64,000 nt of DNA, taken from Rhynchopus sp. YZ270_cl-10 (taxonomy: Eukaryota). A model generated the notes under the pieces. The model was not told the DNA's origin. It ran no database searches and saw only the letters and a program-made list of their open reading frames with translations. The DNA is taken from positions 1,612,001 through 1,676,000 of the forward strand of contig OZ037839.1 of the NCBI GenBank assembly GCA_964035575.1. The letters run 5' to 3'. Position numbers and translations under genes: made by a program. This document shows, piece by piece, positions 35,222 through 61,495 of the stretch; position 1 is the first letter of the stretch; each line of letters starts with the position of its first letter.

Positions 35222-35230
35222 CCCAATCCC

Positions 35231-38835: not shown

Positions 38836-39125
38836 CAAACAAGAAGAGGATTTGGAGAGTTGGGGGCAGCATGAGCAGGAGCAGAACAAGCTGGATGAAC
38901 CAAGAGGAGGGGATACAACAGCCTCGTGGGCACACCGCTGACGCAACCTTTGAAGCGAGCAGCTAACAATCTTGGTTTTCCTTTTCACGTTTTTCAGTCT
39001 TTTGAGCAACAAATATGAGTAACGAGTCTCTCGAGCATGTTATCCCCCCATTTTGTTGTATCTTGTCTCCCTCCTCCTCCTTCTCAACACTTACCCCACA
39101 ACAGAGCAACACTTCACTCGAAACA

Positions 39126-40670: not shown

Positions 40671-40909
40671 ACAGCAGGATTGGGTTTGGGGCAGGACAAG
40701 CAGGAGCAGGGCAACACAACGTTGCACTTCAGCTGCTACTTTATAATAAAAAAGTGGAGCACACTCTAAGGTGGCTGCACTAATACAACCAAGTTTGCAA
40801 GAAGGAGAAAACATTTCAAGGAAACTCAAGAGCACCACCCACCCACCCACCCGCGCTGTTTGCACTTTGAACCTCTGAGGCGGCACATGTGGAAGCGACA
40901 TCTCACACC

Positions 40910-41170
40910 ACGAAGGTGACGGAAATCGGGAGCTGCTTTTGTAGGGCCTGCACCTCGTTGGAAACGATTGACTTGTCAGCACTGCACAGGGTTGTGAAGG
41001 CAGGTAACGACTTTCTTTGGAGGTGCACCTCGCTGGGAAGTATTGACCTTTCAGCTTTCGGCAGTACCACAAGCGTTGGGTTCGGCTTTATTATTGACTG
41101 CTCATCACTGAAAACAGTTGATTTATCAGTGTTGCGCGGCCTCATAAACATTATCCACGTCTGGATGAGA
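40910..41170 (+). pseudogene. Internal LRR fragment D (repeats 8-11)
   Basis: VTEIGSCFCRACTSLETIDLS...LKTVDLSVL is homologous to the paralogues and has unrelated sequence on both sides. Confidence 0.75.
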
Positions 41171-42035
41171 TCCTCCACTCAGCGGAGGATATTTCCTTCA
41201 GGGGTGTTTTATTTTTTTTTTGGGGGGGGCGTTTTTAAAACCAGGGTATTAGGGTGCAATCCAAATGAACAAGATAAAACAAAAAAGCTTGCGTTTCTTT
41301 TATCGAACAGATTTTATTCTCCGACCCGTACCCAAAACGTAAACACCACTTTGAATCAGAAATAATATTTTCTTTTCTTTTTTCTTCCACACGCGCTTGG
41401 TTTTTGTGTTTCATTAATTATTATCAAAAAGCTTTCGACGCAAAACGTTTCCCCATGTATTGCACGGGAAACAATATATATGACAAACAGGTGCAGGGTG
41501 GTTCCGTGCATATCATAGAACCCGGCACCTTGTGTGTCTTCCAAAAACCAAAAGCGTTGTGTGTGAAGTTTTGAAGGAAGGAAAAATAAAATTTTTTGAC
41601 AAAAACTGGGTTTTCTGGGTTTCTCTCCTGGGTGACGAAAACTAGTGTTTCTGGAGAAAACCTCCACCGTTGACGGACAGTCACCTGAACCTAGCCCCAC
41701 GTCTGCCAGCAACACCCACAGACAGAGCCTGATGCAGGAGGTGTGGGTGTGGCATCAGTGGTTGAGGTGCCACCATTGTCCGAGGGGCTCTTCACACTCG
41801 TCAAGGGGGACGGGACGTCGCATCTCGTTGAGTTGTGTTGTTGATGGTGGGGTGGAGGGGAAGGGGCAGTACTATGTTCTTGTCTCGCAGGGAGATGGTC
41901 ACCGTTTATCTCACGGTAGTCTCAAAGCGTTGTTTCCCTTTGGTTCAATCCTGATTAGTGAGGGCGTAGTGTGATCTGGTGCAACTTTCTCACCCTTTAT
42001 TTGTGTACATTTTCAGGAGAACTCACAACACAACA

Positions 42036-44399
42036 ATGATGAAGTTGGTCGCAACTGTGAAGAAATTGTTCAAAGCAGGTGCGGATGTACGTGACACAGA
42101 TGCGCAAGGAAACACGTGTCTTATCCGTGCAGCGTATCAGGGACACACCGATACTGTGCGCTATCTTGTTAGCTTGCCGGAGGTGGACCTGAATCACGAA
42201 GGCAGCTACAACTACACTGCGTTGCACTTTGCTGTGGACAGAAAACATGCAGACGTGGTGCAGGTGCTCATTGATGCAGGGGCAGACATTGACACAAAGA
42301 ATGATAAAGGACGCTCGCCTCTGCACTTTGCTAGCTTTTCAGGAGAAGTCACGAATATGAAGATGTTGGTCGAGGCAGGTGCGGATGTACGTGCCACAGA
42401 CTACGATGGCAACACGTGTCTCATCCGTGCAGCGTATTTTGGACACACCGATGCTGTGCGCTATCTTCTGAGCTTGCCGGAGGTGGACCTGAATCACCAA
42501 GGCAGCCACAACTACACTGCGTTGCACCAGGCTGTACAGGAAAAACATGTAGACGTGGTGCAGGTGCTCATTGATGCAGGGGCAGACACTGAGACAAGGA
42601 ATGATGAAGGACACTCGCCTCTGCACTTGGCTAGCTTTTCAGGAGAACTCACAACTGTGAAGATGTTGGTCGAGGCAGGTGCGGATGTGCGTGTCACAGA
42701 AGCCGAAGGAAACACGTGTCTCATCCGTGCAGCGTATCAGGGACACACCGATACTGTGCGTTATCTTGTTAGCTTGCCGGAGGTGGACCTGAATCACCAA
42801 GGCAGCTACAACTACACTGCGTTGCACCATGCTGTACAGGAAAAACATGCAGACGTGGTGCAGGTGCTCATTGATGCAGGGGCAGACATTGAGACAAAGA
42901 ATGATGACGGACGCTCGCCTCTGCATGTGGCTAGCTTTTCAGGAGAACTCACAACTGTGAAGATGTTGGTCAAAGCAGGTGCGGATGTACGTGCCACAGA
43001 CGCCGAAGGAAACACGTGTCTTATCCTTGCAGCGTGTTGTGGACACACCGATACTGTGCGCTATCTTGTTAGCTTGCCGGAGGTGGACCTGAATCACGAA
43101 GGCAACAGGAACAGCACTGCGTTGCACCATGCTGTACGGGAAAAACATGCCGACGTGGTGCAGGTGCTCATTGATGCAGGGGCAGACATTGACACAAAGA
43201 ATGATGACGGACGCTCGCCTCTGCACGTGGCTAGCTTTTCAGGAGAACTCACAACTGTGAAAATGTTGGTCGAGGCAGGTGCGGATGTACGTGCCACAGA
43301 CGCCGAAGGAAACACGTGTCTCATCCGTGCAGCGTATTTTGGACACACCGATGCTGTGCGCTATCTTGTGAGCTTGCTGGAGATGGCCCTGAATCACGAA
43401 GGCAGCAGGAACAGCACTGCGTTGCACCGTGCTGTGGTAAGAAATCATGCAGACGTGGTGCAGGTGCTCATTGATGCAGGGGCAGACACTGAGACATGGA
43501 ATGATGAAGGACACTCGCCTCTGCACTTGGCTAGCTTTTCAGGAGAACTCACAACTGTGAAGATATTGGTCGAGGCAGGTGCGGATGTACGTGCCACAGA
43601 CGCCGAAGGAAACACGTGTCTTATCCGTGCAGCGTATCAGGGACACACCGATACTGTGCGCTATCTTGTTAGCTTGCCGGAGGTGGACCTGAAGCACCAA
43701 GGCAGCAGGAACAGCACTGCGTTGCACTTTGCCGTACAGGAAAAACATGCAGACGTGGTGCAGGTGCTCATTGATGCAGGGGCAGACATTGAGACAAGGA
43801 ATGATGACGGGCACTCGCCTCTGCACGTGGCTAGCATTTTAGGAGAACTCACAACTGTGAAGATGTTGGTCAAAGCAGGTGCGGATGTACGTGCCACAGA
43901 CACCAGAAGAGACACGTGTCTTCTCCTTGCAGCGTGTCATGGACACATCGATACTGTGCGCTATCTCGTTAGCTTGCCGGAGGTGGACCTGAAGCACGAA
44001 GGCAGCTACAACCACACTGCGTTGCACTTTGCTGTGGACAGAAAACATGCAGACGTGGTGCAGGTGCTCATTGATGCAGGGGCAGACACTGAGACATGGA
44101 ATGATGAAGGACACTCGCCTCTGCACTTGGCTAGCTTTTCAGGAGAACTCACAACTGTGAAGATATTGGTCGAGGCAGGTGCGGATGTACGTGCCACAGA
44201 CGCCGAAGGAAACACGTGTCTTATCCGTGCAGCGTATCAGGGACACACCGATACTGTGCGCTATCTTGTTAGCTTGCCGGAGGTGGACCTGAAGCACGAA
44301 GGCAGCTACAACCACACTGCGTTGCACTTTGCTGTGGACAGAAAACATGCAGACGTGGTGCAGGTGCTCATTGATGCAGGGGCAGACACTGAGCGTTAG
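42036..44399 (+). CDS. Ankyrin-repeat protein, ~8 x 100-aa units of 3 ANK repeats each, 3' end truncated
   Basis: GNTCLIRAA / TALHxAV / SPLHxAS ankyrin motifs with an exact 300-nt period. The ORF stops mid-unit (ADTER*), where unrelated sequence starts at ~44394. Confidence 0.85.
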   Translation: MMKLVATVKKLFKAGADVRDTDAQGNTCLIRAAYQGHTDTVRYLVSLPEVDLNHEGSYNYTALHFAVDRKHADVVQVLIDAGADIDTKNDKGRSPLHFASFSGEVTNMKMLVEAGADVRATDYDGNTCLIRAAYFGHTDAVRYLLSLPEVDLNHQGSHNYTALHQAVQEKHVDVVQVLIDAGADTETRNDEGHSPLHLASFSGELTTVKMLVEAGADVRVTEAEGNTCLIRAAYQGHTDTVRYLVSLPEVDLNHQGSYNYTALHHAVQEKHADVVQVLIDAGADIETKNDDGRSPLHVASFSGELTTVKMLVKAGADVRATDAEGNTCLILAACCGHTDTVRYLVSLPEVDLNHEGNRNSTALHHAVREKHADVVQVLIDAGADIDTKNDDGRSPLHVASFSGELTTVKMLVEAGADVRATDAEGNTCLIRAAYFGHTDAVRYLVSLLEMALNHEGSRNSTALHRAVVRNHADVVQVLIDAGADTETWNDEGHSPLHLASFSGELTTVKILVEAGADVRATDAEGNTCLIRAAYQGHTDTVRYLVSLPEVDLKHQGSRNSTALHFAVQEKHADVVQVLIDAGADIETRNDDGHSPLHVASILGELTTVKMLVKAGADVRATDTRRDTCLLLAACHGHIDTVRYLVSLPEVDLKHEGSYNHTALHFAVDRKHADVVQVLIDAGADTETWNDEGHSPLHLASFSGELTTVKILVEAGADVRATDAEGNTCLIRAAYQGHTDTVRYLVSLPEVDLKHEGSYNHTALHFAVDRKHADVVQVLIDAGADTER

Positions 44400-44665
44400 A
44401 ACAATGCCGGACATTCTCCTTAAGTTGCGCCATTCTTGTGTGCAGCTTCGTTGGAGTTGTCTTTTCATTCCTGTAAACTGAGTTTCCTTTAGGATCCCTT
44501 CAGGAGCATGCCTACCTACCTTTACGGTCGACAATGCATTGTTCCGCATGGTGCTGCTGTTGGATGCAGACAGAATGAGAGTTTTTGATTAAGTCGAGAA
44601 AGGCAAAAGGTCCGCCCCCCATTGCCCCTGCCGCTACTGCGCTCCTGGAGCGCTACTTAGTTTGC

Positions 44666-44780
44666 TGCAAGCACAAGAGGACAAAAAAGAGGAACAAAAA
44701 GAGGATTTGGAGAGTTGGGGGCAGCATAAACAGGAGCAGGACAAGCTGGATGAACAGAGGGGTTTGGGGGGTTTGGTGTT
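44666..44780 (+). pseudogene. Orphan 3' tail of an Ubl-LRR copy
   Basis: QAQEDKKEEQKEDLESWGQHKQEQDKLDEQRGLG is nearly identical to the tail of copy A. Confidence 0.7.
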
Positions 44781-45046
44781 TTGTGTGAACACTTCGCTGA
44801 ACCTATTGAACTGCATTTTTGGATTCACTTTTGAGCTGGGGTGGAATATTTGGCAGGTTTGGTGCACAACTCTGACAAGACGGAGTGTCCCACCACTTTT
44901 TGTGAAAAACGTGTCAGTCCAGGGTCTTTTCTACCACACATAGTTAAGTGAAAAACAAACAAGAAAGCTATTTTGTTGTATCTTGCCTCCCCTCCTCCTC
45001 CTTCTCAACACTTTCCCCACAACAGAGCAACACTTCACTCGAAACA

Positions 45047-46402
45047 ATGGAACTGTGTGTGCAGGGATATGATGATGAAACCAAATTCGTGATTGAGGTG
45101 GGTGAGAAGGACACAACGGAGACGATGCGGCAGAAGGTGGCGTCTGCAACAGGGTTGTGCGAAGACAGCTTCCGCATGGGCTTCGGAGGGAAGGAGGAAG
45201 GAGAGGACATCACAGAACTGAGTGCTGGAGACACAGTCGTGTTGACGAAAACTACTAAGTACCTATCTGTTGAGGAACTTCGTGCCTTGGGTGAGACAGA
45301 CATTTCCGAAGCGAGGTTGGCGACTGTGAAGGATCCTGAGGTGGCTTCTCTGCTTCTTCAGGCGGAGGTTGCGACTGTTATTCCGACCTCGTTCTTGATC
45401 GAAGCATCGTTTACGAGACTTGATCTCTCTGCTGTGTCTGGTGTGACGCGAATTGAGCAAGGCTTCCTCTACGGGTGTGCGTCGGTGGAAACCGTTGACT
45501 TGTCGGGATTGTGCAACGTTACGCACATCGGGTGTAACTTTCTCTCTGAATGCACATCGTTGACAAGCCTTGACGTGTCAGGGTTCACTGGTGTGACGGT
45601 GATAGGGAACGCGTTCCTCCATGAAAGTGGCGTCACAGCGCTTGACTTATCCGCGATGACGAGCGTGACGAAGGTTGGTGACTACTTCCTGTACCACTGC
45701 GTGTCGTTGCAAAGTCTTGACATCTCAGGATGGCGCAGAGTCACGCACATTCAGAACAACTTCCTCGAGAAATGCACCTCGTTGGCAACGATTGATTTAT
45801 CAGCTTTTTGCAGTGTCACGAAGATCGGCACCGCCTTTCTCTTCAACTGCAAGTCGTTGACCACCATCAGCTTTTCAGGGATGACGAATGTGACGGACAT
45901 TGGGCACAGCTTTTGTAGGATCTGCACCTCGTTGGAAACGATTGACTTATCTGCACTGCACAGGGTTGTGAAGGTGGGTTTCGGCTTTCTTTGGAGGTGC
46001 ACCTCGCTGGGAAGTGTCGACCTTTCAGCTTTCGGCAGCGCCACACACGTTGGCCACGGCTTTCTTAGTCACTGTTCATCATTGAAAACAGTTGATTTAT
46101 CAGTGTTGCGCACCATCAAGCGCATTGAGCCAAGCTGGATACAAGGGTGCTCCGCGTTGACAACAGCAGACTTATCAGGACTGAGCAATGTTCAGCAGAT
46201 TGGTGAACATTTCCTGCAAGGGTGCACATCGTTGACCACGCTGGACATATCAGGTATAGGGGAGACGATGATCGGCGACGACTTCCTGCGCAACTTACCT
46301 AGCAACATCGACATTCGCGAGACGTCAAAAGAGGACCACAGCATGCTGCAGCGTGCCCCTGTACCCATGTGTGTGTGCGTGTTATGTGAGCGCAAGGGGT
46401 AG
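45047..46402 (+). CDS. Ubl + LRR protein, copy E (451 aa, degenerate C-terminus)
   Basis: Same start context and LRRs 1-12 intact. The last repeat and tail are diverged or frameshifted (the ARQCIALKAG motif reappears out of frame at ~46440). Confidence 0.7.
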   Translation: MELCVQGYDDETKFVIEVGEKDTTETMRQKVASATGLCEDSFRMGFGGKEEGEDITELSAGDTVVLTKTTKYLSVEELRALGETDISEARLATVKDPEVASLLLQAEVATVIPTSFLIEASFTRLDLSAVSGVTRIEQGFLYGCASVETVDLSGLCNVTHIGCNFLSECTSLTSLDVSGFTGVTVIGNAFLHESGVTALDLSAMTSVTKVGDYFLYHCVSLQSLDISGWRRVTHIQNNFLEKCTSLATIDLSAFCSVTKIGTAFLFNCKSLTTISFSGMTNVTDIGHSFCRICTSLETIDLSALHRVVKVGFGFLWRCTSLGSVDLSAFGSATHVGHGFLSHCSSLKTVDLSVLRTIKRIEPSWIQGCSALTTADLSGLSNVQQIGEHFLQGCTSLTTLDISGIGETMIGDDFLRNLPSNIDIRETSKEDHSMLQRAPVPMCVCVLCERKG

Positions 46403-47100
46403 AACCCTTTCAGGCAGCACGACAAGACGTGTCTGGAGATGCAAGACAATGTATTGCATTGAAAGCAGGACAAGAAGGAGAAGGGATTGATGCAAGCACA
46501 AGAGGGCGACTACAAAAAAGCTGCTTCAGAGGGTATTGTGCAGGACAAACAGGACCTGGACGAGCAGGACAAGCAGGAGGATTAGGAGGATATGGTGCGG
46601 GGCAAACAGGAGCAGGACGAACGGGTTTGGTGCAGGACTGAGAGGAGCTGGGCAGGCAGGAGTATTTGGAGGGATTGGTTAGCAGAAGGCATTTCATGAG
46701 CATTTGGAGGGTTTGGTGATTTGTGTGAAGAACACTTCGGTGAAAATATGGAACTCTATTTTTGGATACACCTGTGAGCTCTTGGGGGTAGGGGAATCGA
46801 AGCAACGCGTATGACGTGGGTACGTACCAACTAAACAATAACGGGGTGAAGAACGGGATTTTTATTGCTCTCTTTTTGTGAGAAGGCTGCAAAACTAACC
46901 AAAATATAATTTGTTCAGCCTTTTCGATTGATTTTATTTTTATTAGGACAAATACTTTGTGGTAAATGATTAAAACATCTGAGACTTGTCGTTTATTCCC
47001 TTACCCTATTATTGTGCACTCACCTCATTTCTGTACTTCAGGCTAAGGGTTTTTCCCCTTTTGACATCCTTTTCTGGACGTTGTGGGGGTACAAAAAAAA

Positions 47101-47175
47101 ACGCGAAGCAACGCGAAGCAACGCGAAGCAACGCGAAGCAACGCGAAGCAACGCGAAGCAACGCGAAGCAACGCG
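47101..47175. repeat. (ACGCGAAGCA)n, ~7 copies
   Basis: 10-bp period directly after an A-run. Confidence 0.9.
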
Positions 47176-47579
47176 TATGACGTGGGTAGCGTACCCACTG
47201 CACAAAAGACGAGAAGGGGTTTATATATTTGTGTTCCTGTCTATCTGATACACAAACAGGATGTGGCCGATATTTGTTTGGATTGGTAGCTTTCCGTATA
47301 CACTGCTGCCAAGCCTCTGTAGGTGCATATCCTGTGAGACAGAGATTCTGAGAGAAAGGGAAAGGAAGAATAAAGCGTTTGTATTTTGTGTATTCCGTAA
47401 CCAAAAAAAACTGAAGTAGAAGGTACCAAATGTTCACACGAACATCAATTTGACGACAATTCACCCACCATCTAAAGGGAAATCACTGAAGATGTCCACT
47501 TTCATTTTGTTGTATCTTGCCCCCCTCCTCCTCCTTCTCAACACTTACCCCACAACAGAGCAACACTTCACTCGAAACA

Positions 47580-49109
47580 ATGGAACTGTGTGTGCAGGGA
47601 TATGATGATGAAACCAAATTCGTGATTGAGGTGGGTGAGAACGACACAACGGAGACGATGCGGCAGAAGGTGGCGTCTGCAACAGGGTTGTGCGAAGACA
47701 GCTTCCGCATGGGCTTCGGAGGGAAGGAGGAAGGAGAGGACATCACAGAACTGAGTGCTGGAGACACAGTCGTGTTGACGAAAACTACTAAGTACCTATC
47801 TGTTGAGCAACTTCGTGCCTTGGGTGAGACAGACATTTCCGAAGCGAGGTTGGCGACTGTGACGGATCCTGAGGTGGCTTCTCTGCTTCTTCAGGCGGAG
47901 GTTGCGACTGTTATTCCGTACGAGTTCTTGAGCAGATCATCGTTTACGAGACTTGATTTCTCTGCTGTGTCTGGTGTGACGCGAATTGAGGACCGCTTCC
48001 TCTACGGGTGTGCGTCGGTGGAAACCGTTGACTTGTCGGGATTGTGCAATGTTACGCATATTGGGGATGAGTGTCTCTCTCACTGTACATCGTTGAGAAG
48101 CCTTGACGTGTCAGGGTTTACTGGTGTGACGGTGATCGGGAAGGCGTTCCTCCAAGGAAGTGGCGTTACAAAGCTTGACTTATCCGCGATGATGAGTGTG
48201 ACGAAGGTTGGTAGAAGCTTTCTTTTCCAGTGCAAATCGTTGGATAGTCTTGACATCTCAGGATGGCGCAGAGTCACGCACATTGAGAACGGCTTCCTCA
48301 CGAACTGCACCTCGTTGGCAACCATTGATTTATCAGCTTTTTGCAGTGTCACGAAGATCGACTCACAATTTCTCTTGAACTGCTCGTCGTTGACCACCAT
48401 CAGCTTTTCAGGGATGACCAATGTGACGGAAATCGGGAACGAATTTTGTACGGACTGCACCTCGTTGGAAACGATTGACTTGACAGCACTGCACAGGGTT
48501 GTGAAGGTGGGGGACGACTTTCTTTGGGGCTGCACCTCGCTGGGAAGTATCGACCTCTCAGCTTTTGGGAGTACCACAGGCGTTGGGCACAGCTTTCTTT
48601 TTCAGTGTTCATCATTAACAACAGTTGATTTATCAGTGTTGCGCAGCATCACACACATTGAGCCAAGGTGGGTGGAAGGGTGCTCCGCGTTGACAACAGC
48701 AGACTTATCAGGAATGAGCAATGTTCAGCAGATTGATGACCATTTCCTGCAAGGGTGCACATCCTTGACCACGTTGGACATGTCAGGTTTTGGCAGGAAC
48801 ACAGAGATACAACACTACTTCCTGCACAACTGCAACGCACTCACAACAGTCATCTTGCCAGGCAACATCGACATTGACGACATCTCCATCCCGTATGAAT
48901 CTGGTTTTGCCAGAAGCGAGGCCTTCTACGAACGTGTGCATGAGATTTACGCAAGGTTTACGGAAGACTTCGAAGATGTGCGGATAGAAGCTTTTGAGGC
49001 AGTACGAACAGACGTGTCTGGAAGTGCAAGACAATGTATTGCATTGAAAGCAGGACATAGATTTGCTGGTGTGCGTTGTGTTTGTGATGCTACTTTGGGG
49101 GTTCTTTGA
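47580..49109 (+). CDS. Ubl + LRR protein, copy F (13 LRRs, 509 aa)
   Basis: Same start context, Ubl domain, 13 repeats and conserved tail up to RQCIALKAG. Confidence 0.85.
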   Translation: MELCVQGYDDETKFVIEVGENDTTETMRQKVASATGLCEDSFRMGFGGKEEGEDITELSAGDTVVLTKTTKYLSVEQLRALGETDISEARLATVTDPEVASLLLQAEVATVIPYEFLSRSSFTRLDFSAVSGVTRIEDRFLYGCASVETVDLSGLCNVTHIGDECLSHCTSLRSLDVSGFTGVTVIGKAFLQGSGVTKLDLSAMMSVTKVGRSFLFQCKSLDSLDISGWRRVTHIENGFLTNCTSLATIDLSAFCSVTKIDSQFLLNCSSLTTISFSGMTNVTEIGNEFCTDCTSLETIDLTALHRVVKVGDDFLWGCTSLGSIDLSAFGSTTGVGHSFLFQCSSLTTVDLSVLRSITHIEPRWVEGCSALTTADLSGMSNVQQIDDHFLQGCTSLTTLDMSGFGRNTEIQHYFLHNCNALTTVILPGNIDIDDISIPYESGFARSEAFYERVHEIYARFTEDFEDVRIEAFEAVRTDVSGSARQCIALKAGHRFAGVRCVCDATLGVL

Positions 49110-49300
49110 GAGAGTTAGTGTTCACCCTTTTTCAAGCTTTTGTGCGTCTATTTTCCTTTTCACGTTTTGCAGTCTTTTGAGCAACAAATAAGAGTAACGA
49201 GTCTCTCGAGCATGTTATCCCCCCATTTTGTTGTATCTTGCCTCCCTCCTCCTCCTTCTCAACACTTACCCCACAACAGAGCAACACTTCACTCGAAACA

Positions 49301-50782
49301 ATGGAACTGTGTGTGCAGGGATATGATGATGAAACCAAATACGTGATTGAGGTGGGTGAGAAGGACACAACGGAGACGATGCGGCAGAAGGTGGCGTCTG
49401 CAACAGGGTTGTGCGAAGACAGCTTCCGCATGGGCTTCGGAGGGAAGGAGGAAGGAGAGGACATCACAGAACTGAGTGCTGGAGACACAGTCGTGTTGAC
49501 GAAAACTACTAAGTACCAATCTGTTGAGGAACTTCGTGCCTTGGGTGAGACAGACATTTCCGAAGCGAGGTTGGCGACTGTGGAGGATCCTGAGGTGGCT
49601 TCTCTGCTTCTTCAGGCGGAGGTTGCGACTGTTATTCCGAACTGGTTCTTGAGCGAAGCATCATTTACGAGACTTGATTTCTCTGCTGTGTCTGGTGTGA
49701 CGCGAATTGAGCAAGGCTTCCTCTACGGGTGTGCGTCGGTGGAAACCGTTGACTTGTCGGGATTGTGCAACGTTACGCACATTGGGGACAACTGTCTCTA
49801 TGAGTGCACATCGTTGACAAGTCTTGACGTGTCAGGGTTCACTGGTGTGACGGTGATAGGGAAGGCGTTCCTCCAAGGAAGTGGCGTTACAAATCTTGAC
49901 TTATCCGCGATGACGAGCGTGACGACGGTTGGTAGGGACTTTCTTGCCGACTGCAATTCGTTGGAAAGGATTGACATCTCAGGATGGCGCAGAGTCACGC
50001 ACATTGAGAACAACTTCCTGTCGAACTGCACCTCGTTGGCAACGATTGATTTATCAGCTTTTTGCAGTGTCACGAAGATCGGCTTCGAGTTTCTCTTCAA
50101 CTGCTCGTCGTTGACCACCATCAGCTTTTCAGGGATGAACAATGTGACGGACATTGGGAACAGCTTTTGTTGGGCCTGCACCTCGTTGGAAACGATTGAC
50201 TTGACAGCACTGCACAGGGTTGTGAAGGTGGGTTCTGGCATCGGGACCAACTTTCTTTTTGAGTGCTCATCATTGAAAACAGTTGATTTATCAGTGTTGC
50301 GCAATATCACACACATTGGGCCAGTCTGGATGGAAGGGTGTTCCTCGTTGACAACAGCAGACTTCTCAGGACTGAGCAATGTTACGCAGATTGAGAGTGG
50401 TTTCCTGAAAGATTGCACATCCTTGACTACGCTGGACATATCAGGTATAGGCAGGAACACAGAGATCCATCGCCGCTTCCTGATCAACTGCAACGCACTC
50501 ACAACAGTCGTCTTGCCAGGCAACATCGACATTGACGAGATGTTGTCTCTCCCGAATGGAGACCCTAGAATGAGCACCTACAAGGAGGCCTTCTATGTAC
50601 GTGTGCGTGAGATTTACGCAAGGTTTACAGAAAAGTTCGAAGATGTGCGGATAGAAGCTTTTGAGGCAGTACGAACAGACGTGTCTGGAGATGCAAGACA
50701 ATGTATTGCATTGAAAGCAGGACAAGAGAGAGGGAAAAAAAGAGGAACAAAAAGAGGATTTGGAGAGTTGGGGGCAGCATAA
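49301..50782 (+). CDS. Ubl + LRR protein, copy G (12 LRRs, 493 aa)
   Basis: Same architecture, with LRR9/10 fused (VVKVGSGIGTNFLFEC). Confidence 0.85.
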   Translation: MELCVQGYDDETKYVIEVGEKDTTETMRQKVASATGLCEDSFRMGFGGKEEGEDITELSAGDTVVLTKTTKYQSVEELRALGETDISEARLATVEDPEVASLLLQAEVATVIPNWFLSEASFTRLDFSAVSGVTRIEQGFLYGCASVETVDLSGLCNVTHIGDNCLYECTSLTSLDVSGFTGVTVIGKAFLQGSGVTNLDLSAMTSVTTVGRDFLADCNSLERIDISGWRRVTHIENNFLSNCTSLATIDLSAFCSVTKIGFEFLFNCSSLTTISFSGMNNVTDIGNSFCWACTSLETIDLTALHRVVKVGSGIGTNFLFECSSLKTVDLSVLRNITHIGPVWMEGCSSLTTADFSGLSNVTQIESGFLKDCTSLTTLDISGIGRNTEIHRRFLINCNALTTVVLPGNIDIDEMLSLPNGDPRMSTYKEAFYVRVREIYARFTEKFEDVRIEAFEAVRTDVSGDARQCIALKAGQERGKKRGTKRGFGELGAA

Positions 50783-52017
50783 ACAGGAGTAGGACAAGCT
50801 GGATGAACAGAGGGGTTTGGGGGGTTTGGTGTTTTGTGTGAAGAACACTTCGGTTAAAATATCAACTTCATATTTGGATTCACTTTTGAGCTGGGGTGGA
50901 ATATTTGGCAGGTTTGGTGCACAACTCTGACAAGACGGAGTGTCCCACCACTTTTTGTGAACAACGTGTCTGCCCAGGGTCTTTTCTACCACACATAGTT
51001 AAGTGAAAAACAAACAAGAAAGCTATTTTGTTGTATCTTGCCTCCCTCCTCCTCCTTCTCAACACTTACCCCAAAACAGAGCAACACTTCACTCGAAACA
51101 ATGGAACTGTGTGTGCAGGGATATGATGATGACACCAAATTCGTGATTGAGGTGGGTGAGAAGGACACAACGGAGACGATGCGGCAGAAGGTGGCGTCTG
51201 CAACAGGGTTGTGCGAAGACAGCTTCCGCATGGGCTTCGGAGGGAAGGAGGAAGGAGAGGACATCACAGAACTGAGTGCTGGAGACACAGTCGTGTTGAC
51301 GAAAAATACTAAGTACCAATCTGTTGAGGAACTTCGTGCCTTGGGTGAGACAGACATTTCCGAAGCGAGGTTGGCGACTCCCGACGGCGGACCGCCCCCC
51401 ATAGCACATTTTTGCGGTGCACGGGCGTACGGGATTACTAGGGGATGGCTAGCTACCATGAACCCCTGTCCAAAGTATTAATATTTCTCGAAAATTCTCT
51501 AAGTACGCAGAAAACACACGGGTGTGCCCCAAAACACATTTTTTCCAGTGTCCCGCAGTGTCCCACCACTTTTTTTCGCTTTTGGTGGGAAAAAAAATAC
51601 AAAAAAAAATACATGGTTCTGTAGGGGCCGAGTACAATGGCGTTTTTCACGTGATTTTCATGATTTTTCAAAGTGGCCAAATATCATGTAAAATACTGCC
51701 TCCCACCCAACATTCTCTCCACAACGTCGTTCTGACACCCATATGTCCAAACAAAAGATGTTTTTATATATTTTTTTCCACACCCAGCGTATCATAAAAA
51801 TGCACATATCCACCAAAATCCACTAACCCACCGCAGGCAAATTTCTTAACGATGTGTACTTCTGAATTGATGCTGAGGGATTATGCGGCACCCGCTGCGT
51901 AGTTCTGTGGGGTAAAACGCCACCTGGGGTCACAAGCCCCAGCTCCTACCTTTACAGGTAGGAGAGCTGTTGAGTGACCCATCGGACAATCGTTTGAGGG
52001 GTCTTGGTGAAGAATTT

Positions 52018-54803
52018 CGAAAATTGATAAAAACGAATAAGCGTCTCACAATTGAACCCAGATTCTGCTCCAGATGTGATGTCTTGGTCTGTTTCTGCCT
52101 GAATTGTGTAAGGGGGCCCGATTTTGTTGCGGAAAATTACGAAAATTATTGAAAACCAATAAGCGCCTCACAATTGAACCCAGATTCTGCTCCAGATGCG
52201 ATGTTTTGGTCTGTTTCTGCCTGAATTGTGTAAGGGGGCCCGATTTTGTTGCGATAAATTACGAAAATTGATGAAAACAAATATGCGTCTCACAATTGAA
52301 CCCAGATTCTGCTCCATATGCGATGTTTTGATGTGTTTCGACCTGAATTGTGTGAGGGGGCCCGATTTTGTTGCGGAAAATTACGAAAATTGATGAAAAC
52401 TAATATGCGTCTCACAATTGAACCCAGATTCTGCTCCAGATACGATGTTTTGATGTGTTTCTGCCTGAATTGTGTAAGGGGGCCCGATTTTGTTGCGGAA
52501 AATTACGAAAATTATTGAAAACCAATAAGCGCCTCACAATTGAACCCAGATTCTGCTCCAGATGTGATGTCTTGGTCTGTTTCTGCCTGAATTGTGTAAG
52601 GGGGCCCGATTTTGTTGCGGAAAATTACGAAAATTATTGAAAACCAATAAGCGCCTCACAATTGAACCCAGATTCTGCTCCAGATGCGATGTTTTGGTCT
52701 GTTTCTGCCTGAATTGTGTAAGGGGGCCCGATTTTGTTGCGATAAATTACGAAAATTGATGAAAACAAATATGCGTCTCACAATTGAACCCAGATTCTGC
52801 TCCATATGCGATGTTTTGATGTGTTTCGACCTGAATTGTGTGAGGGGGCCCGATTTTGTTGCGGAAAATTACGAAAATTGATGAAAACAAATATGCGTCT
52901 CACAATTGAACCCAGATTCTGCTCCAGATGCGATGTTTTGATGTGTTTCTGCCTGAATTGTGTAAGGGGCCCCGATTTTGTTGCGGAAAATTACGAAAAT
53001 TATTGAAAACCAATAAGCGCCTCACAATTGAACCCAGATTCTGCTCCAGATACGATGTTTTGATGTGTTTCTGCCTGAATTGTGTAAGGGGGCCCGATTT
53101 TGTTGCGGAAAATTACGAAAATTGATGAAAACTAATATGCGTCTCACAATTGAACCCAGATTCTGCTCCAGATTCGATGTTTTGATGTGTTTCTGCCTGA
53201 ATTGTGTAAGGGGGCCCGATTTTGTTGCGGAAAATTACGAAAATTATTGAAAACAAATATGCGTCTCACAATTGAACCCAGATTCTGCTCCATATGCGAT
53301 GTTTTGATGTGTTTCGACCTGAATTGTGTGAGGGGGCCCGATTTTGTTGCGGAAAATTACGAAAATTATTGAAAACCAATAAGCGCCTCACAATTGAACC
53401 CAGATTCTGCTCCAGATACGATGTTTTGGTTTGTTTCTGCCTGAATTGTGTAAGGGGGCCCGATTTTGTTGCGGAAAATTACGAAAATTATTGAAAACCA
53501 CTAAGCGCCTCACAATTGAACCCAGATTCTGCTCCAGATACGATGTTTTGATGTGTTTCTGCCTGAATTGTGTAAGGGGGCCCGATTTTGTTGCGGAAAA
53601 TTACGAAAATTATTGAAAACCAATAAGCGCCTCACAATTGAACCCAGATTCTGCTCCAGATGCGATGTTTTGATGTGTTTCTGCCTGAATTGTGTAAGGG
53701 GGCCCGATTTTGTTGCGGAAAATTACGAAAATTATTGAAAACCAATAAGCGCCTCACAATTGAACCCAGATTCTGCTCCAGATACGATGTTTTGATGTGT
53801 TTCTGCCTGAATTGTGTAAGGGGGCCCGATTTTGTTGCGGAAAATTACGAAAATTATTGAAAACCAGTAAGCGCCTCACAATTGAACCCAGATTCTGCTC
53901 CAGATGCGATGTTTTGGTTTGTTTCTGCCTGAATTGTGTAAGGGGGCCCGATTTTGTTGCGGAAAATTACGAAAATTGATGAAAACAAATATGCGTCTCA
54001 CAATTGAACCCAGATTCTGCTCCAGATGCGATGTTTTGATGTGTTTCTGCCTGAATTGTGTAAGGGGGCCCGATTTTGTTGCGGAAAATTACGAAAATTA
54101 TTGAAAACCAATAAGCGCCTCACAATTGAACCCAGATTCTGCTCCAGATACGATGTTTTGATGTGTTTCTGCCTGAATTGTGTGAGGGGGCCCGATTTTG
54201 TTGCGGAAAATTACGAAAATTGATGAAAACAAATATGCGTCTCACAATTGAACCCAGATTCTGCTCCAGATGCGATGTTTTGATGTGTTTCTGCCTGAAT
54301 TGTGTGAGGGGGCCCGATTTTGTTGCGGAAAATTACGAAAATTATTGAAAACCAATAAGCGCCTCACAATTGAACCCAGATTCTGCTCCAGATGCGATGT
54401 TTTGGTCTGTTTCTGCCTGAATTGTGTGAGGGGGCCCGATTTTGTTGCTGAAGATTACGAAAATTGATTCTAACCAATAAGCGTCTCACAATTGAACCCA
54501 GATTCTGCTCCAGATATGATGTGTTGATGTGTTGCGACCTGAATTGTGTGAAGGGACCTGATTCTGTTCCTGCAGAATGTGACAATTCACGAAAACCAAT
54601 AATCGTCTCACAATTGAACCCAGATTCTGCTCCAGATGCGATGTTTTGGTCTGTTTCTGCCTGAATTGTGTGAGGGGGCCCGATTTTGTTGCTGAAGATT
54701 ACGAAAATTGATTCTAACCAATAAGCGTCTCACAATTGAACCCAGATTCTGCTCCAGATATGATGTTTTGGTCTGTTTCGATCTGATTTGTGTGATGGGG
54801 CCG
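52018..54803. repeat. 122-bp tandem repeat, ~23 diverged copies, inside the TIR element
   Basis: CTCACAATTGAACCCAGATTCTGCTCC at 52045, 52167 and onward. A 488-bp (4-unit) higher-order duplication is visible (52196 vs 52684). Confidence 0.97.
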
Positions 54804-54889
54804 GCTCAATATCTGATTATGTTACAGATATAATTGAACTTAGTGTGTGTCGTTATTTTTTAATTTTACTTTGTTACTGGGGGGGGGGC

Positions 54890-54940
54890 GAATAAGAGAT
54901 CAGGGGTGAATAAGAGATCAGGGCCGAATAAGAGATCAGG
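54890..54940. repeat. Three 15-bp direct repeats GAATAAGAGATCAGG at 18-bp spacing
   Basis: 54890-54904, 54908-54922 and 54926-54940. Confidence 0.9.
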
Positions 54941-55094
54941 TTGAGATTTTGGGGGTATTTTCAACTTACCTTCCTTCACCCCCCCCTGTAAGGGCAACCG
55001 TAGGTGAAGTAAGGTATAGTATTGAAATCGATGTGGGGGGGGAGTAAAGGGTCAATTTTACAAAACCAGATTTTGAGGAAAATTTTAGCCGAAA

Positions 55095-55797
55095 ATGGGC
55101 CCCACGTATAAGCAACCGGGCTCATATTTCTCAAAATTTAAGTGGTCAAAAAATTGTCCAATTTTCGAGATTGACCCCACCACTGCACGGGACCCAAACA
55201 CTGAGACGACCGGATTTGTGGTGAAGGACACGGACAGGGCTGAGAAGCGTTTCGGCCTGTTGGACGACGCCATCGACCACGCCACCAGAGGGCAACCATT
55301 TTCCTGGGAAGCTCCGCTGGTACTTGCCGTGAAGCGGGGAAACTTCAAGGGAAGGTTCCACACTGCTGCCACCCTGCAGGTGTACGCCATCCGGAAGGTG
55401 AACCGCAGAGTGACGGACGCTGTGCTGGCGGATGAGGCACGTGCTTGGGCAGCCCGTTGCTTGGAGACGTTGACGGAGACGCTGAATGCAGAGATTCAGC
55501 ACGTGATGAATGCGGCACGTGAGGCTGTGAGTATCCGTGTTGATGAACTTCGGGACTACCTGTGGCAGCGGAGGCGAACGCCGCACGTTGTGTCTTCCTT
55601 GTGTGACTTGGTGCGCAGGGGCATGGGTAGTGCTGTGCAGTGTGCGAAGCTGCGCGGTGGCAGCGACACAGTCCTGAGGAATTTGCTGGAGGACACAGTG
55701 GGTGCTACGAACGAACGCACGAACGACATGTCTGAGTCTGAAGATGACCGATCAGGAGCGGTGAGCTGCGAATTGTTCCCTGTGTCGGAGCCACCAC

Positions 55798-55829
<32 letters not shown>

Positions 55830-57284
55830 GCACCACCACCAGTACCAGCAGAAAGTCCGAGGAAGCGGAGGAGAGCTGGGACTGATGCATCCCAGAATGT
55901 TGCAAAGAAGCGTAAGCCTGCACCGAAGAACGGTCAGCAGCAACAGAAGCAGCAGCCACCACAGAAGAAACAGAAGCCACAGAAGCCACAGCAGAAGCCA
56001 CAGCAACCACAGCAGCCACAACAGCCACAGCAGAAGCCACAGCAACCACAACAGCCACAGCAGAAGCCACAGCAACCACAGCAGCCACAACAGCCACAGC
56101 AGAAGCCACAGCAACCACAGCAGCCACAACAGCCACAGCAGAAGCCACAGCAACCACAACAGCCACAGCAGAAGCCACAGCAACCACAGCAGCCACAACA
56201 GCCACAGCAGAAGCCACAGCAACCACAGCAGCAGCAGAACCCACACCAGCCAGGCGTTGGGGAGGCGGAGGAGATGGAGCAATTGCAGGCTGCCCTTGAT
56301 GCAACCCTCCACCAGCCTCCACCAGTGCCGAGGGGGTTCCATAACTTCGGCGTGACGTGTTTCATCAACTCTGTTTTACAGTGTTTAGTGTACACGGACT
56401 CGTTTGTGAAGTCCCTCTCGAATGCTGGCCCTTTTTCGAGGGCGATACGCGAAGTGGTGGCTCAGTCAGTGGCTGCCGATGCACAAGATGTGATCCGCCC
56501 TACGAGCATACGCGACGCATTAAATGTGAAGGAGCCTGGGTTCACGTATACGCAGCAAGACTGCCACGAGTTTTTTCTTGTGCTGACGGACGCCCTCGAG
56601 GTGGAGGCAAGACGTGGGAAAGTTAAACATCCCACCAACGAAGTGCTGGATCATGAGACTTTGTCTGTGGCCTCGGCACGAGTAGTGAACTCTTACCTCG
56701 AGAGTTCTAATTGTCCAGCAATGGGTTTTCTTTATCTACAGTATGTCCAGACAGCCACTTGTTTTGGCTGTGACACTAAGTGCCTCACCGTCACCCCCTC
56801 ACACAATATGATATTGCACTTCCCCACGCGGGACACCGGTTCATTGCCAGTGGCATTGGGTGCGTTACTTCAGCACCTCTCTAGGGTGGAAGAAATGCAC
56901 GCAGAGCAGGAGTACAAGTGCCTGACCTGCCACCCGCAGACCTTCGCAGCCAGAATGGTGACACGTGTGATGCGGCTGCCAAATGTTTTGGCAATGCAAT
57001 TGGCGAGGTTTCACGACCCGCTCAATAAGATCGAGACGATCGTTGAACTTCCGCATGAGTTGGACATGGCACCATACGTGCACTCTGACTCTCTAGAGGT
57101 GCAACTTCGGTATGACCTGTATGGTGTTGTCTGTCACCACGGACACAGGATGGGGCACGGCCACTACAGTGCATACGTGAAGTCAGAGGGTACGTGGTAT
57201 CATTGCAATGATTCAAGTGTGACAAAGAACCCGAGGCTTCTCTTTTCAGAGGCATACCTTCTTTTTTATCATCGTCGGGGGTGA
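55095..57284 (+). CDS. Ubiquitin-specific protease (USP, peptidase C19) with basic NLS-like motif and Q/P-rich linker; true start uncertain
   Basis: Cys box GFHNFGVTCFINSVLQCL, QQDCHEF, Zn-ribbon CFGC/CLTC, His box YDLYGVVCHHG..GHYSAYVK, WYHCNDSSV and AYLLFY. PRKRRR/AKKRK basic motif. The first ~28 codons overlap an AT-rich inverted repeat and may be non-coding. Confidence 0.88.
55935..56238 (+). repeat. Coding low-complexity repeat (PQQ/PQQK)n within the USP ORF
   Basis: CCACAGCAG/CAA/AAG 9-12-nt units. Confidence 0.9.
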
Positions 57285-60200
57285 TTCTTTTTGGTGCATC
57301 GAGACGTTACGTGTTCTTTATAAGATTGTCTGATGGAGGCAGTATCGGCGACAGTGGGGGAAATAGAGGGGGGTATGAGTTCAGAGAGACTGGGGTTATT
57401 GTCTCAGGACCGAGTCAGGTAGTTGAACTTCATCCTTTTTTAAATAGTGTGGATCTTTGCAGTCGTCGGTTATGTCTGAAAATTCTTAAGTCCACTTTGT
57501 GAGGGCCTTTCATTAACATTAAAGGCCACTTTTGTTTTTTTTTTTCACGAATTGTTTCTCTCTCGCCTTGTCTTCATTTCAAGTTATGCCACACCCCTCT
57601 CAGCAGCCTGCTGATCAGAGTAAATGTTAAAGTATCAGCCTTTCTAGGTGTTCTTGAGTGAACAATGCAAGCTTCCTCTCCAAAGCTTTTCTGTTGCGAT
57701 TCTTTCTATTTGTTCCGATTTAGCCTTTTCACAAGTTGTGTAATATTTGCAAGCACTCTGTTTTGTCAGTTTCTCTTCCTTCTTCGACCAACAAAGATAC
57801 CACACCACCCCAGACCCTTTCCAATTTTTCATTTCCTCTATTCTTCCCATCCAAGCCCTCCCCACACAATTCTGTTCCAGATGTAAATCTTGCCATAATT
57901 AAACCATTTCTGTAATCTGTGATCGTGCCGCAGGCGCAAGCGGCACTTGAAACATTTGAAACAACATTGTATTGTGCTAATTGGTCGCCACCTGAAGTAT
58001 CCGTAATTGAACTAGTTATCAAATCTGTGGTCAGTCTCATGGACGAATCATTGAATGCTGCATGCGCTGCCGACAATTGAAACGTTTGAAACAATATTGT
58101 ATTGTACCAATTCACGCGAGAGCCCCCAACCCCAAAATTCTGGGAGGAAAAAAAGGGGGAAATAAAAAATAAAAAAAAAATAAAAAAAATGCCGGAAAAC
58201 GCCTAAGTACAAAATAATACTTTGGACAGCTTTTTGTGAAGGAATTACCCTAGCTATCCACCCCCTAGGATTAGTATCTTTTTTTGAGAGAACCCAAGAG
58301 CGGCCAGGTCCTGGACAAGTACGTTGTGCTTTTAGACCTACAAACTGTCTGGGGTGGTGGGACCTCGGGGCGAAGGGTGCTTCCCGGGACCCCAATATCC
58401 TACCACAAGGAGCTCGAGTCGTGCATGGAATGCAGGGTACTCTGAGCCGATTACTTCCACAAAACTCCCAGATCCCAAGACCTCCACGGGGGGCAGGCCT
58501 CCACGGCAACCCGCGACCGCCGACACCTTAGCTCCGTACTGCCTCTGTCTGTAACCTGCCGGTCCCCCACCTACCTACGCTTTTTGTGGTGTCTTTTTAC
58601 GACGGTGGACCAAGGGGCTTTGCAGTGCAGTCAACGCCGACGGAGCGAGACTCGATTGTGACCGGGTGAAAAGGGAACCTTAGCCAGCGCTAACCAGCGG
58701 CAGTTTTGACTCAGGGAAGGAGTTTCTCACCGCAGACTGGCGACACACCCCCACTTTTTCGGGGTGGCTGCATTCCTCTTCGGAACGGGGTGTTCCATCC
58801 TATTTTTAAAAACGTTTATCGAAGCGAGGTTGGCGACTGTGAGGGATCCTGAGGTGGCTTCTCTGCTTCTTCAGGCGGAGGTTGCGACTGTTATTCCGAA
58901 CTGGTTCTTGAGCGGAGCATCGTTTACGAGACTTGATCTCTCTGCTGTGTCTGGTGTGACACGAATTGAGCACAACTTCCTCTACGGGTGTGCGTCGGTG
59001 GAAACTGTTGACTTGTCGGGATTGTGCAACGTTACGCACATCGGGAGTTGCGTTCTCTCTTACAGCACCTCGTTGACAAGTCTTGACATCTCAGGATGGC
59101 GCAGAGTCACGCACATTGAGAACAACTTCCTCCAGAACTGGACCTCGTTGGCAACCATTGATTTATCAGCTTTTTGCAGTGTCACGAAGATCGGCACCGC
59201 CTTTCTCGTCAACTGCAAGTCGTTGACCACCATCAGCTTTTCAGGGATGACGAATGTGATGGAAATTGAGGACAACTTTTGTTCATGCTGCACCTCGTTG
59301 GAAACGATTGACTTGACAGCACTGCACAGGGTTGTGAAGGTGGGGTACGGCTTTCTTACGAGGTGCAGATCGCTGGGAAGTATCGACCTTTCAGCTTTCG
59401 GCAGTGTCGCTGTCATTGGGTTCAACTTTTTCAGTGCTCATCATTGAAAACAGTTGATTTATCAGTGTTGCGCAGCATCAAGTGCATTGAGCGAAACTGG
59501 ATGCACGGGTGCTCCGCGTTGACAACAGCAGACTTATCAGGACTGAGCAATGTTGAGAACATTGCGACACGTTTCCTGGATGCGTGCACATCCTTGACCA
59601 CGCTGGACATGTCAGGTATAGGCTGTGACACAAGGATCGGCGACGACTTCCTGCTCGACTGCAACGCACTCATAAGAGTAGTATTGCCAGGCAACATCGA
59701 CATTGACGAGATGTTGTCTCTCCCGATTGAAGACGATGATACGAGTGAAGAAAGCATTGCCAGAAGCGAGGCCTTCTATGTACGTGTGCGTGAGATTTAC
59801 GCAAGGTTTACGGAACAGTTCGAAGATGTGCGGATAGAAGCTTTTGAGGCAGTACGAACAGACGTGTCTGGAAGTGCAAGACAATGTATTGCATTGAAAG
59901 CAGGACAAGAGAGAGAAGGGATTGATGCAAGCACAAGAGGACAAAGAAGAGGAACAAAAAGAGGATTTGGAGAGTTGGGGGCAGCATAAACAGGAGCAGG
60001 ACAAGCTGGATGAACAGAGGGGTTTGGGGGGTTTGGTGATTTGTGTGAGTTGTTTTTTTTACAAGACATGTGTGCATTTCTAGTGGTTCAAACCAGTACG
60101 AACATTACTTCAACACACAAAGTATTATTGTTATCCACAACAACCGTAGTTGGGTTGTGAGGACGTGGCACATGGTGTGCACACCACGCTGCGCATATGC

Positions 60201-60559: not shown

Positions 60560-61495
60560 ATGAGCCTCAAACTCGTAAAGTCTATGTGGGGAGTGGACGA
60601 GCTTGCTGACCCTGCCCTTCGCAAGACTATGTTCGCACGCGTCGTGGCAGAGGGCTACGAAGCCGTGGACATGCACGCTGTATGCTGGCGGCACCCTGGC
60701 GTGCTTGACGACCTGCACACTGCGGGGCTTGCCCTGGTAGCAACGATACACACGACGTCTGTCTGTGACGCAGGGTTCGAAGGGTTCAAGGTTATGACGG
60801 CATGGGGTGTTCATGAGCACCTAGCGTCGTTTACGATGCTTGCAAACGAGGCTGCCAAAATGGGTGCCATCGCGATCAACGCACACAGCGGTGTCGATGG
60901 GTGGAGCGTCGACGAGGCCCGCACCTACCTCCGCGGCGCGCTTGCTGTGGAACGCTCTTTGTCCCCATCCGTCCCCATCTTCCACGAGACGCACCGCCTG
61001 CGTCTCTTCTGGAGCCCCTTCAACCTGCGCGATGTGCTGCAAGGTGCTGACGACCTGGCCGACATTAAGCTGAACTGCGACATCTCACACTGGGTTGTCT
61101 GTTTGGAACGACTCTTTGGGAGTGGATCATCGATTGCAGGAGCACAGCACGACCCATGGTGGCCAGAGGTGCTGGGGATGCTCAAGGCGCGTTGTGGCAT
61201 GATCCATGCGCGTGTGGGGTATGGAGAAGGCTCGCAGGTGCCCAACCCCGCAGCACCTGAGTATGCAACAGAGCTAACCGCCTTCCTCGGGTACTGGAAG
61301 GAGATCGTGCAGGCGCAGGTGGCAAGGAAAACGCCCAGCATTGTAGTCCCGGAGCACGGCCCCTGGCCGTATCAGCAGAGTGTGCCGTTTGCAGCGACGG
61401 CACCGAACCACAGCATCTGGGAGGCAAATGAGTTTGTGAAGACGGTGGTGGCGGAACGCTTCCCGCAGTGGGTGGAGGAGGTGGGGGAGGTGTGA
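60560..61495 (+). CDS. Xylose isomerase-like TIM-barrel protein (sugar phosphate isomerase/epimerase family), 311 aa
   Basis: Motifs KSMWG, INAHSG, HETHR, DISHW, IHARVG..QVPNP and PEHGP. The ATG at 60560 follows a pyrimidine-rich CAG. Confidence 0.8.
   Translation: MSLKLVKSMWGVDELADPALRKTMFARVVAEGYEAVDMHAVCWRHPGVLDDLHTAGLALVATIHTTSVCDAGFEGFKVMTAWGVHEHLASFTMLANEAAKMGAIAINAHSGVDGWSVDEARTYLRGALAVERSLSPSVPIFHETHRLRLFWSPFNLRDVLQGADDLADIKLNCDISHWVVCLERLFGSGSSIAGAQHDPWWPEVLGMLKARCGMIHARVGYGEGSQVPNPAAPEYATELTAFLGYWKEIVQAQVARKTPSIVVPEHGPWPYQQSVPFAATAPNHSIWEANEFVKTVVAERFPQWVEEVGEV

What the first reader, a model, noticed from the sequence alone, without database searches (positions are those of the whole stretch)
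51380..58819. Hidden ingi-like SINE with an HDV-ribozyme-like 5' end, visible only after removing the nested transposon
Seen: deleting 51438-58273 gives a 604-bp element with a 19-bp TSD, beginning CCCGACGGCGGACCGCCCCCCATAGCACATTTTTGCGGTGCACGGGCGTACGGGATTAGTATCTTTTTTTGAGAGAACCCAAGAGCGGCC. Possible pairings follow HDV order: P1 CCCG-ACG/CGTACGGG, P2 GGACCGC/GCGGCC, P3 CCC/GGG with an unusually long loop, a P4-like TCTT/GAGA stem and a CCAAG junction. Known: ingi/L1Tc/RIME/SIDER elements start with the Pr77 promoter/HDV-like ribozyme, recalled as CCC...GGG-nnnAGTA-hairpin-GAAnnnAAGnGC. Inference: a short ingi-clade retroposon whose ribozyme was hit by the DNA transposon.
Basis: partly seen in the sequence, partly recalled or inferred. 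Interest (0 to 1): 0.7.

Follow-up and report, generated by a model that had tools for sequence, protein, structure and literature searches.

The report
Ribozyme-headed retroposon split by a transposon
This is a real 604-base jumping element, cut in two here by a larger insertion but whole in other copies; its front end is predicted to fold into a self-cutting RNA like those of trypanosome retroposons but with a rebuilt core, in what is likely a free-living marine relative of trypanosomes.

Summary
Observation confirmed. A 604-bp non-coding element with an exact 19-bp target duplication interrupts one copy of a ubiquitin-like/LRR gene family, and a 6.8-kb element with terminal inverted repeats splits it after base 58. 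Contigs of 5 of 7 laid public runs show the uninterrupted join; 2 had nothing laid. The putative catalytic C is kept in a variant subfamily. It departs from Pr77: a hairpin inside L3, C.A for the core U.G pair, a 2-bp A-U P1.1, a bulged P1, no CGTG promoter motif, no poly(A) tail. Other copies sit at the same codon of other paralogs, and one is in tandem. One gene points to a diplonemid-like host. No partner LINE, within-family covariation or cleavage was shown. The scan noted ribozyme-headed retroposons, two with L3 hairpins, on other DNA before. Verdict: new variant of a known kind.

The parts
51361..51379 (+). Left copy of the 19-bp target-site duplication, inside a ubiquitin-like/LRR coding sequence
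   Evidence: Exact repeat of 58820-58838; site empty in five paralogs of the window
51380..51437 (+). Retroposon bases 1-58: predicted P1 (51380-51386 with 51426-51433, one bulged A), P2 5' strand (51389-51396), P3 (51397-51399 with 51423-51425), L3 (51400-51422) holding a 4-bp hairpin (51404-51420), P1.1 partners (51401-51402 with 51434-51435)
   Evidence: Pairings read from sequence and tested on shuffles; 5' boundary matches contigs in X9 and X11
51439..58267 (.). Nested 6.8-kb element with imperfect 17-bp terminal inverted repeats and a 15-bp subterminal inverted motif; no transposase recognised
   Evidence: Ends compared; X7 contigs stop or change flank at 58267 and 51439
52013..54779 (.). 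122-bp tandem array (22.7 copies) inside the nested element
55089..57284 (+). Open frame with a C-terminal ubiquitin-specific protease domain, cargo of the nested element
   Evidence: Pfam UCH, E 1.6e-44; N-terminal part unassigned
58268..58273 (+). Second copy of the six bases duplicated by the nested insertion
   Evidence: Equals 51432-51437
58274..58305 (+). Retroposon bases 59-90: AGTA motif, predicted P4 (58277-58289), J4/2 (58290-58297) with the putative catalytic C at 58294, P2 3' strand (58298-58305)
   Evidence: the X7 variant keeps that C and changes the next base C to T
58306..58760 (+). Non-coding body of the retroposon
   Evidence: No Pfam hit in two open frames; no tRNA or Pol III box found; covered by contigs in 4 of 4 runs
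58761..58819 (+). 3' module: 41-nt stem-loop plus a short tail without poly(A), shared with other sequences that join exactly at 58761
   Evidence: Fold z -2.6 and -3.0; loose ends before 58761 in X1, X7, X9
58820..58838 (+). Right copy of the 19-bp duplication; the interrupted gene resumes after it

Best explanation
The 604-bp element is a multi-copy, non-coding retroposon, split in this copy by a later insertion, whose first 90 bases are predicted to fold into a Pr77-type HDV-like ribozyme that would cut the element's RNA free at base +1. Shown: boundaries, duplication, uninterrupted copies, several insertion sites, a tandem junction, a 3' stem-loop shared with other elements. Inferred: the element is read through from the host's polycistronic transcription (or from an internal promoter); the head self-cleaves just before 51380 using C58294; the proteins of an L1Tc/ingi-like LINE bind the 3' stem-loop, nick a preferred target about 19 bp apart and reverse-transcribe the RNA in place. 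The preferred target recurs at one codon of the large ubiquitin-like/LRR family, making it a hot spot like trypanosome RHS genes. The head would be a slow or modified ribozyme: C.A replaces U.G and a hairpin sits in L3. The window copy is dead as a ribozyme because P4, J4/2 and the P2 3' strand now lie 6.8 kb away.
For: 19-bp duplication and five empty paralogs. Uninterrupted join in 5 of 7 laid runs. Anchored Pr77-type motif in 1 of 200,000 dinucleotide shuffles and nowhere else in the window; with the motif fixed, P1+P3+P2+P4 form in 208 and the full set in 6 of 100,000 shuffles. One register of 8 gives P1.1, with two pairs. Against the Pr77 sequences of PMC4035085 (compared by eye), P1 positions 4-7, the outer P3 pair and the P1.1 pair change on both sides and still pair. 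C23/A28 is the only active double mutant of that pair in the antigenomic HDV ribozyme (PMC3386971). The X7 variant keeps the catalytic-position C; the X11 change and the T-run change fall in the P4 loop. Element-duplication-element junction in one X1 contig, as for ingi-clade elements (PMC3820030). Same codon hit in other paralogs in X7, X9, X11. An orthogroup annotated 'L1Tc protein' has members in two diplonemids (PMC10161547 supplement).
Against: No cleavage data and no run on record as RNA. No compensatory change was seen within the family: the copies are too alike, and the two differences of the X7 variant in 51389-51436 were not listed. Nested folding gives no excess stability (z +0.75 for bases 1-91), low pair probabilities (P1 0.3, P3 0.04) and a rival helix (12-16 with 35-39) of similar energy. 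C23/A28 is 232-fold slower in HDV; in R2 a single L3 G-to-A change abolished cleavage and P1 mismatches lower it (PMC3774820); J1/2 is only 2 nt if P2 is fully paired, and 0-1 nt linkers barely cleave (PMC4908430). No poly(A), no CGTG element, 19-bp rather than 12-bp duplication. No partner LINE identified; no genome held. Host clade rests on one gene whose branch is sister to, not inside, the named diplonemids.
Confidence: 0.62

Rival explanations
1. The head descends from a Pr77-type ribozyme but no longer cleaves; it is kept as a promoter, a protective 5' structure or a protein-binding signal.
For: Altered core, bulged P1, 23-nt L3, weak predicted folding; several well-folded SIDER heads were inactive in vitro (PMC4035085).
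Against: Every change keeps a pair, including the one tolerated double change; the catalytic-position C is kept in a variant; copies start at +1 and are nearly identical, so the family is young; the CGTG promoter motif is absent.
Confidence: 0.22
2. The element is a ribozyme-headed dependant of another LINE clade (RTE, Vingi or a diplonemid-specific one), and the Pr77 likeness reflects shared HDV architecture.
For: 19-bp duplication, no poly(A), no CGTG; six LINE clades carry 5' ribozymes (PMC5786205); earlier scan notes place L3-hairpin heads on an RTE retroposon (unchecked).
Against: C at +1, the CCC/GGG orientation of P1 and the AGTA and GAA-x-C-Y-AAG motifs are trypanosomatid-type; PMC4035085 names P1 orientation and P1.1 make-up as differences from R2 and HDV; the host is likely a euglenozoan.
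Confidence: 0.12
3. The retroposon is real but the HDV fit is a chance product of a GC-rich 5' end.
Against: Motif anchored at an independently defined +1 in 1 of 200,000 shuffles; full fit in 6 of 100,000.
Confidence: 0.04

Closest known systems
TSIDER1, SIDER2, NARTc and RIME of trypanosomatids (short L1Tc/ingi-clade retroposons with Pr77 / L1TcRz)
   Same: About 0.6 kb, non-coding; head starts with CCC at +1, P1 ends in GGG, then xxxAGTA, a short P4, GAA-x-C-Y-AAG and P2; tandem copies separated by the duplication; site preference (PMC4035085, PMC3820030).
   Different: 19-bp versus 12-bp duplication; no poly(A); no CGTG element; L3 of 23 nt with a hairpin versus 7 nt; C.A versus U.G; 2-bp A-U/U-A P1.1 versus 1 bp; bulged P1; host outside trypanosomatids.
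RHS (retrotransposon hot spot) genes of Trypanosoma
   Same: A multigene family with one recurring insertion position in the 5' coding region that yields split pseudogenes (PMC7563717).
   Different: Here the family is ubiquitin-like/BspA-type LRR (257 hits), unrelated to RHS by Pfam; only about three paralog types are seen and other flanks occur too.
HDV-like ribozymes of HDV, R2 and mosquito elements (drz-Agam-2)
   Same: Predicted P1, P1.1, P2, P3, P4 order and a C-Y-A-A junction.
   Different: In the papers read, extra domains lie in J1/2 or P4 and P1.1/P3/L3 are the conserved core (PMC3774820, PMC4908430); here the extra hairpin is in L3.

Membership tests
L1Tc/ingi-clade short retroposons (NARTc, RIME, SIDER) | Pr77-type signature motif at the exact 5' end | tested here: met
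   Anchored motif matches, 1 of 200,000 shuffles; motif read off supplement of PMC4035085. Whole-signature alignment was by eye only.
L1Tc/ingi-clade short retroposons (NARTc, RIME, SIDER) | About 0.5-0.6 kb, non-coding, multi-copy, flanked by a target duplication | tested here: met
L1Tc/ingi-clade short retroposons (NARTc, RIME, SIDER) | Duplication of about 12 bp | tested here: not met
   19 bp in the window; the same 19-nt length inferred in a paralog from an X9 3' flank and an X11 5' flank
L1Tc/ingi-clade short retroposons (NARTc, RIME, SIDER) | Poly(dA) tail | tested here: not met
   Longest A run 5; ends in CGTTTAT in the window and in X7 and X9 contigs
L1Tc/ingi-clade short retroposons (NARTc, RIME, SIDER) | CGTG downstream promoter element at +25 to +28 | tested here: not met
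   No CGTG in bases 1-100 (feature from the abstract of PMC4748587)
L1Tc/ingi-clade short retroposons (NARTc, RIME, SIDER) | Tandem copies separated by the duplication; site preference | tested here: inconclusive
   One tandem contig in one run; AGGTT at -12 to -8 in 3 of 3 5' flanks whose letters are shown, two of them paralogous
L1Tc/ingi-clade short retroposons (NARTc, RIME, SIDER) | Autonomous partner with AP endonuclease, reverse transcriptase and RNase H of the ingi clade | not testable with these tools
   No genome held; only a hint of other sequences sharing the last 59 bases
HDV-like ribozymes | Nested double pseudoknot P1, P2, P3, P1.1, P4 in order | tested here: met
   In silico only
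HDV-like ribozymes | Catalytic C in a C-Y-A-A J4/2 strand | tested here: met
   C58294; kept in the X7 variant
HDV-like ribozymes | U.G reverse wobble closing a 7-8 nt L3 | tested here: not met
   C.A and a 23-nt L3 with a hairpin; C.A is active but slow in HDV
HDV-like ribozymes | Unbroken P1 of about 7 bp | tested here: not met
   7 bp only with one bulged A
HDV-like ribozymes | Covariation across family members | tested here: inconclusive
   Copies nearly identical; no compensatory change listed; collection scans gave only chance hits
HDV-like ribozymes | Mg-dependent self-cleavage 5' of base +1 | not testable with these tools
   Needs a bench assay
tRNA-, 7SL- or 5S-headed SINEs | Pol III head (tRNA fold, A and B boxes) | tested here: not met
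   ARAGORN 0 genes; recalled box patterns not matched

The most novel reading that the evidence does not exclude
An active HDV-like ribozyme with a naturally rebuilt core (C.A for the near-universal U.G pair, an A-U P1.1, a hairpin grafted into L3) heads a young diplonemid retroposon family, shows that the Pr77 hallmark is older than the split of diplonemids and kinetoplastids, and has independently turned a ubiquitin-like/LRR gene family into an RHS-like hot spot.
Probability: 0.3. Interest if true: 0.72.

Novelty: new variant of a known kind. Interest (0 to 1): 0.52.

Why it matters
Pr77 is described from trypanosomatids. I found no paper reporting it, or an HDV-like ribozyme, in diplonemids (none of the 20 papers listed holds 'Pr77'; two key papers were not held). 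If active, the head is a natural test of how far the HDV core can be changed: the C.A pair was made in the lab and described as not found in nature (PMC3386971), and an L3 hairpin did not appear in the papers read. It is a 90-nt RNA that can be assayed in days, and it bears on whether Pr77 began as a ribozyme or as a promoter.

Tried and rejected
No genome held, so no genome-wide copy search. Rfam on 50500-59500: 5 weak hits, none relevant; the joined head could not be given to Rfam. Metagenome scan with a 38-base pattern: 0 hits, and the pattern carried the window's private shorter T run. Gapped scans: 3 metagenome and 26 viral loci, none similar to the element, all treated as chance. Run search: no RNA holder listed; X9's contig begins at +1, but its RNA label is a guess and contigs also begin at branch points, so I do not count it as a cleavage site. 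X12 and X14 had nothing laid on the 5' part, which is no proof of absence. X1, X5 and X9 showed no cover of the nested element's right end, again no proof. No listed contig showed the nested junction itself; it rests on the window and on the duplicated bases. Contig depths were not used as copy numbers. N-terminal part of the nested frame: no Atlas hit, none of 977 candidates, 5 hits of which 4 are short near-copies and 1 an unrelated repeat protein. No 2A-like peptide or LINE remnant seen in the six frames by eye (motif recalled). The P2 coordinates used were off by one at two pairs and were corrected. A register that puts the extra bases in J1/2 instead of L3 was rejected: shorter-L3 registers need three U-G pairs and give no P1.1. 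Scan notes by sequence, by place and by words on the nested element: nothing. Ruminski 2011 and Kojima 2011 were not held; figures and the alignment table of PMC4035085's supplement were not visible and may bear on the register.

Full report
Setting. The window holds a 406-bp satellite (1-33947) and a same-strand array of ubiquitin-like/LRR genes, an ankyrin gene and a sugar-isomerase-like gene. The named top relatives of the last are from Rhynchopus, Flectonema and Lacrimia. In a tree of 34 of 41 proteins (7 under 250 aa dropped) it is sister to them with support 100/96. The host is likely a diplonemid or a close euglenozoan; this is one gene.

Observation. The 19 bases at 51361-51379 recur exactly at 58820-58838, and five paralogs in the window have this site once, uninterrupted. 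Inside lies a 6.8-kb element with imperfect inverted ends and six duplicated bases. Removing 51438-58273 leaves 604 bp. Seventeen of 24 listed runs hold part of the 3' portion, from 13 studies. In 4 of 4 runs laid on 58200-58900 a contig continues left of 58268 with the letters of 51402-51431. Of four runs laid on 51355-51540, X11 gave a contig from 51380 into the 58274 letters, X7 again covered the head, and X12 and X14 gave nothing. So 5 of 7 distinct runs show the uninterrupted element; four bridging contigs meet the 31-letter rule.

Retroposon anatomy. Copies begin at 51380 (X9, X11). One X1 contig reads element end, the same 19 bases, element start: a tandem, as described for ingi-clade elements (PMC3820030). 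X7, X9 and X11 show the element at the same codon of other paralogs; the X11 flank translates to the family motif, found in 102 of 120 listed paralogs. Other flanks exist (one in X9, ten pooled in X7). AGGTT lies at -12 to -8 in the three 5' flanks whose letters are shown; two are paralogous, background 0.0011 per position. Other sequences join the element exactly at 58761 in X1, X7 and X9, the base of a 41-nt stem-loop (z -2.6, 2 of 200 shuffles as good). I infer a shared reverse-transcriptase signal. There is no poly(A) tail.

The head. The SIDER, L1Tco and NARTco sequences in the supplement of PMC4035085 share CCY at +1, RGG-xxx-AGTA, a hairpin and GAA-x-C-Y-AA. The element matches this from its independently defined first base; 1 of 200,000 shuffles does, and the interrupted window has no match. 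Model, in element numbering: P1 1-7 with 47-54 (A50 bulged); P2 10-17 with 83-90 (two bulges); P3 18-20 with 44-46; L3 21-43 with hairpin 25-28/38-41; P1.1 A22-U56 and U23-A55; P4 62-65 with 71-74; catalytic-position C79. Only this one of 8 P3 registers gives P1.1. By eye, P1 positions 4-7, the outer P3 pair and the P1.1 pair differ from Pr77 on both sides and still pair. An X7 variant rewrites the P4 stretch but keeps C79 and changes C80 to T.

Against activity. Nested folding shows no excess stability and a rival helix of equal energy. C.A is active in HDV but 232-fold slower. In R2, a lone G-to-A in L3 stopped cleavage and P1 mismatches reduce it. Some well-folded SIDER heads were inactive. 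No within-family covariation was seen. I put activity at about one in two.

Mechanism. Shown: a mobile, multi-copy, duplication-flanked element with fixed ends. Inferred: release of the RNA by self-cleavage at +1, then target-primed reverse transcription by a partner LINE that binds the 3' stem-loop. L1Tc-annotated proteins occur in two diplonemids, but the partner here is unidentified. The nested insertion falls between P1.1 and P4, so this copy cannot fold the ribozyme; the host gene is also broken by a frameshift near 59430.

Comparison. It works like NARTc, RIME and SIDER, but fails three of their features (poly(A), 12-bp duplication, CGTG), so I call it ingi-like and do not file it as a member. 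The nested element has inverted ends, other copies and a deubiquitinase cargo, but no recognised transposase.

Papers. PMC4035085: parts 1-4 of 7 of the text and all three parts of the supplement's text, no figures. PMC4748587: abstract and outline. Passages only: PMC3185411, PMC3386971, PMC3820030, PMC3774820, PMC12278014, PMC10161547 (plus a word search of 7 supplements), PMC12621601, PMC5786205, PMC13708176, PMC7563717, PMC4908430, PMC4227795, PMC6326823. HDV numbering (C75, U20, G25, 7-8 nt L3) is partly recalled and partly from these passages. Earlier scan notes are unchecked leads and show that ribozyme-headed retroposons, and L3 hairpins, turn up on other DNA, which lowers the uniqueness of this case.

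Verdict. Real, new variant of a known kind, interest 0.52.

Noticed in passing
window 51439-58267: A multi-copy element with 17-bp inverted ends (TAGGGG...CCCCTA) carries a ubiquitin-specific protease frame, a Q/P-rich repeat and a 122-bp array, with no recognisable transposase; its duplication length (6 or 7 bp) is unsettled.
   Followed up: partly
window 58761-58819: Other sequences in X1, X7 and X9 share only this last 59-base module; X1 and X9 have the same upstream letters, a candidate partner LINE or sister family.
   Followed up: partly
window 35821-50782 and 58839-59989: Tandem family of ubiquitin-like plus BspA-type LRR genes, 257 relatives found, the listed ones unnamed and mostly on large ENA contigs; it appears to be an insertion hot spot.
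   Followed up: partly
window 51389-51436 (X7 contig): A subfamily with the same head but a rewritten J1.1/4-P4 stretch.
   Followed up: partly
window 1-33947: 406-bp satellite of about 83 copies followed by 5-bp and 9-bp microsatellites at 34940-35517; possibly centromeric or subtelomeric.
   Followed up: no
window 41970-44399: Ankyrin-repeat frame built of 300-bp units, inserted among the LRR genes.
   Followed up: no
window 60560-61492: Sugar phosphate isomerase/epimerase-like gene shared by diplonemids and a choanoflagellate-containing clade, with many prokaryotic relatives; possible lateral origin.
   Followed up: partly
   Followed up: no
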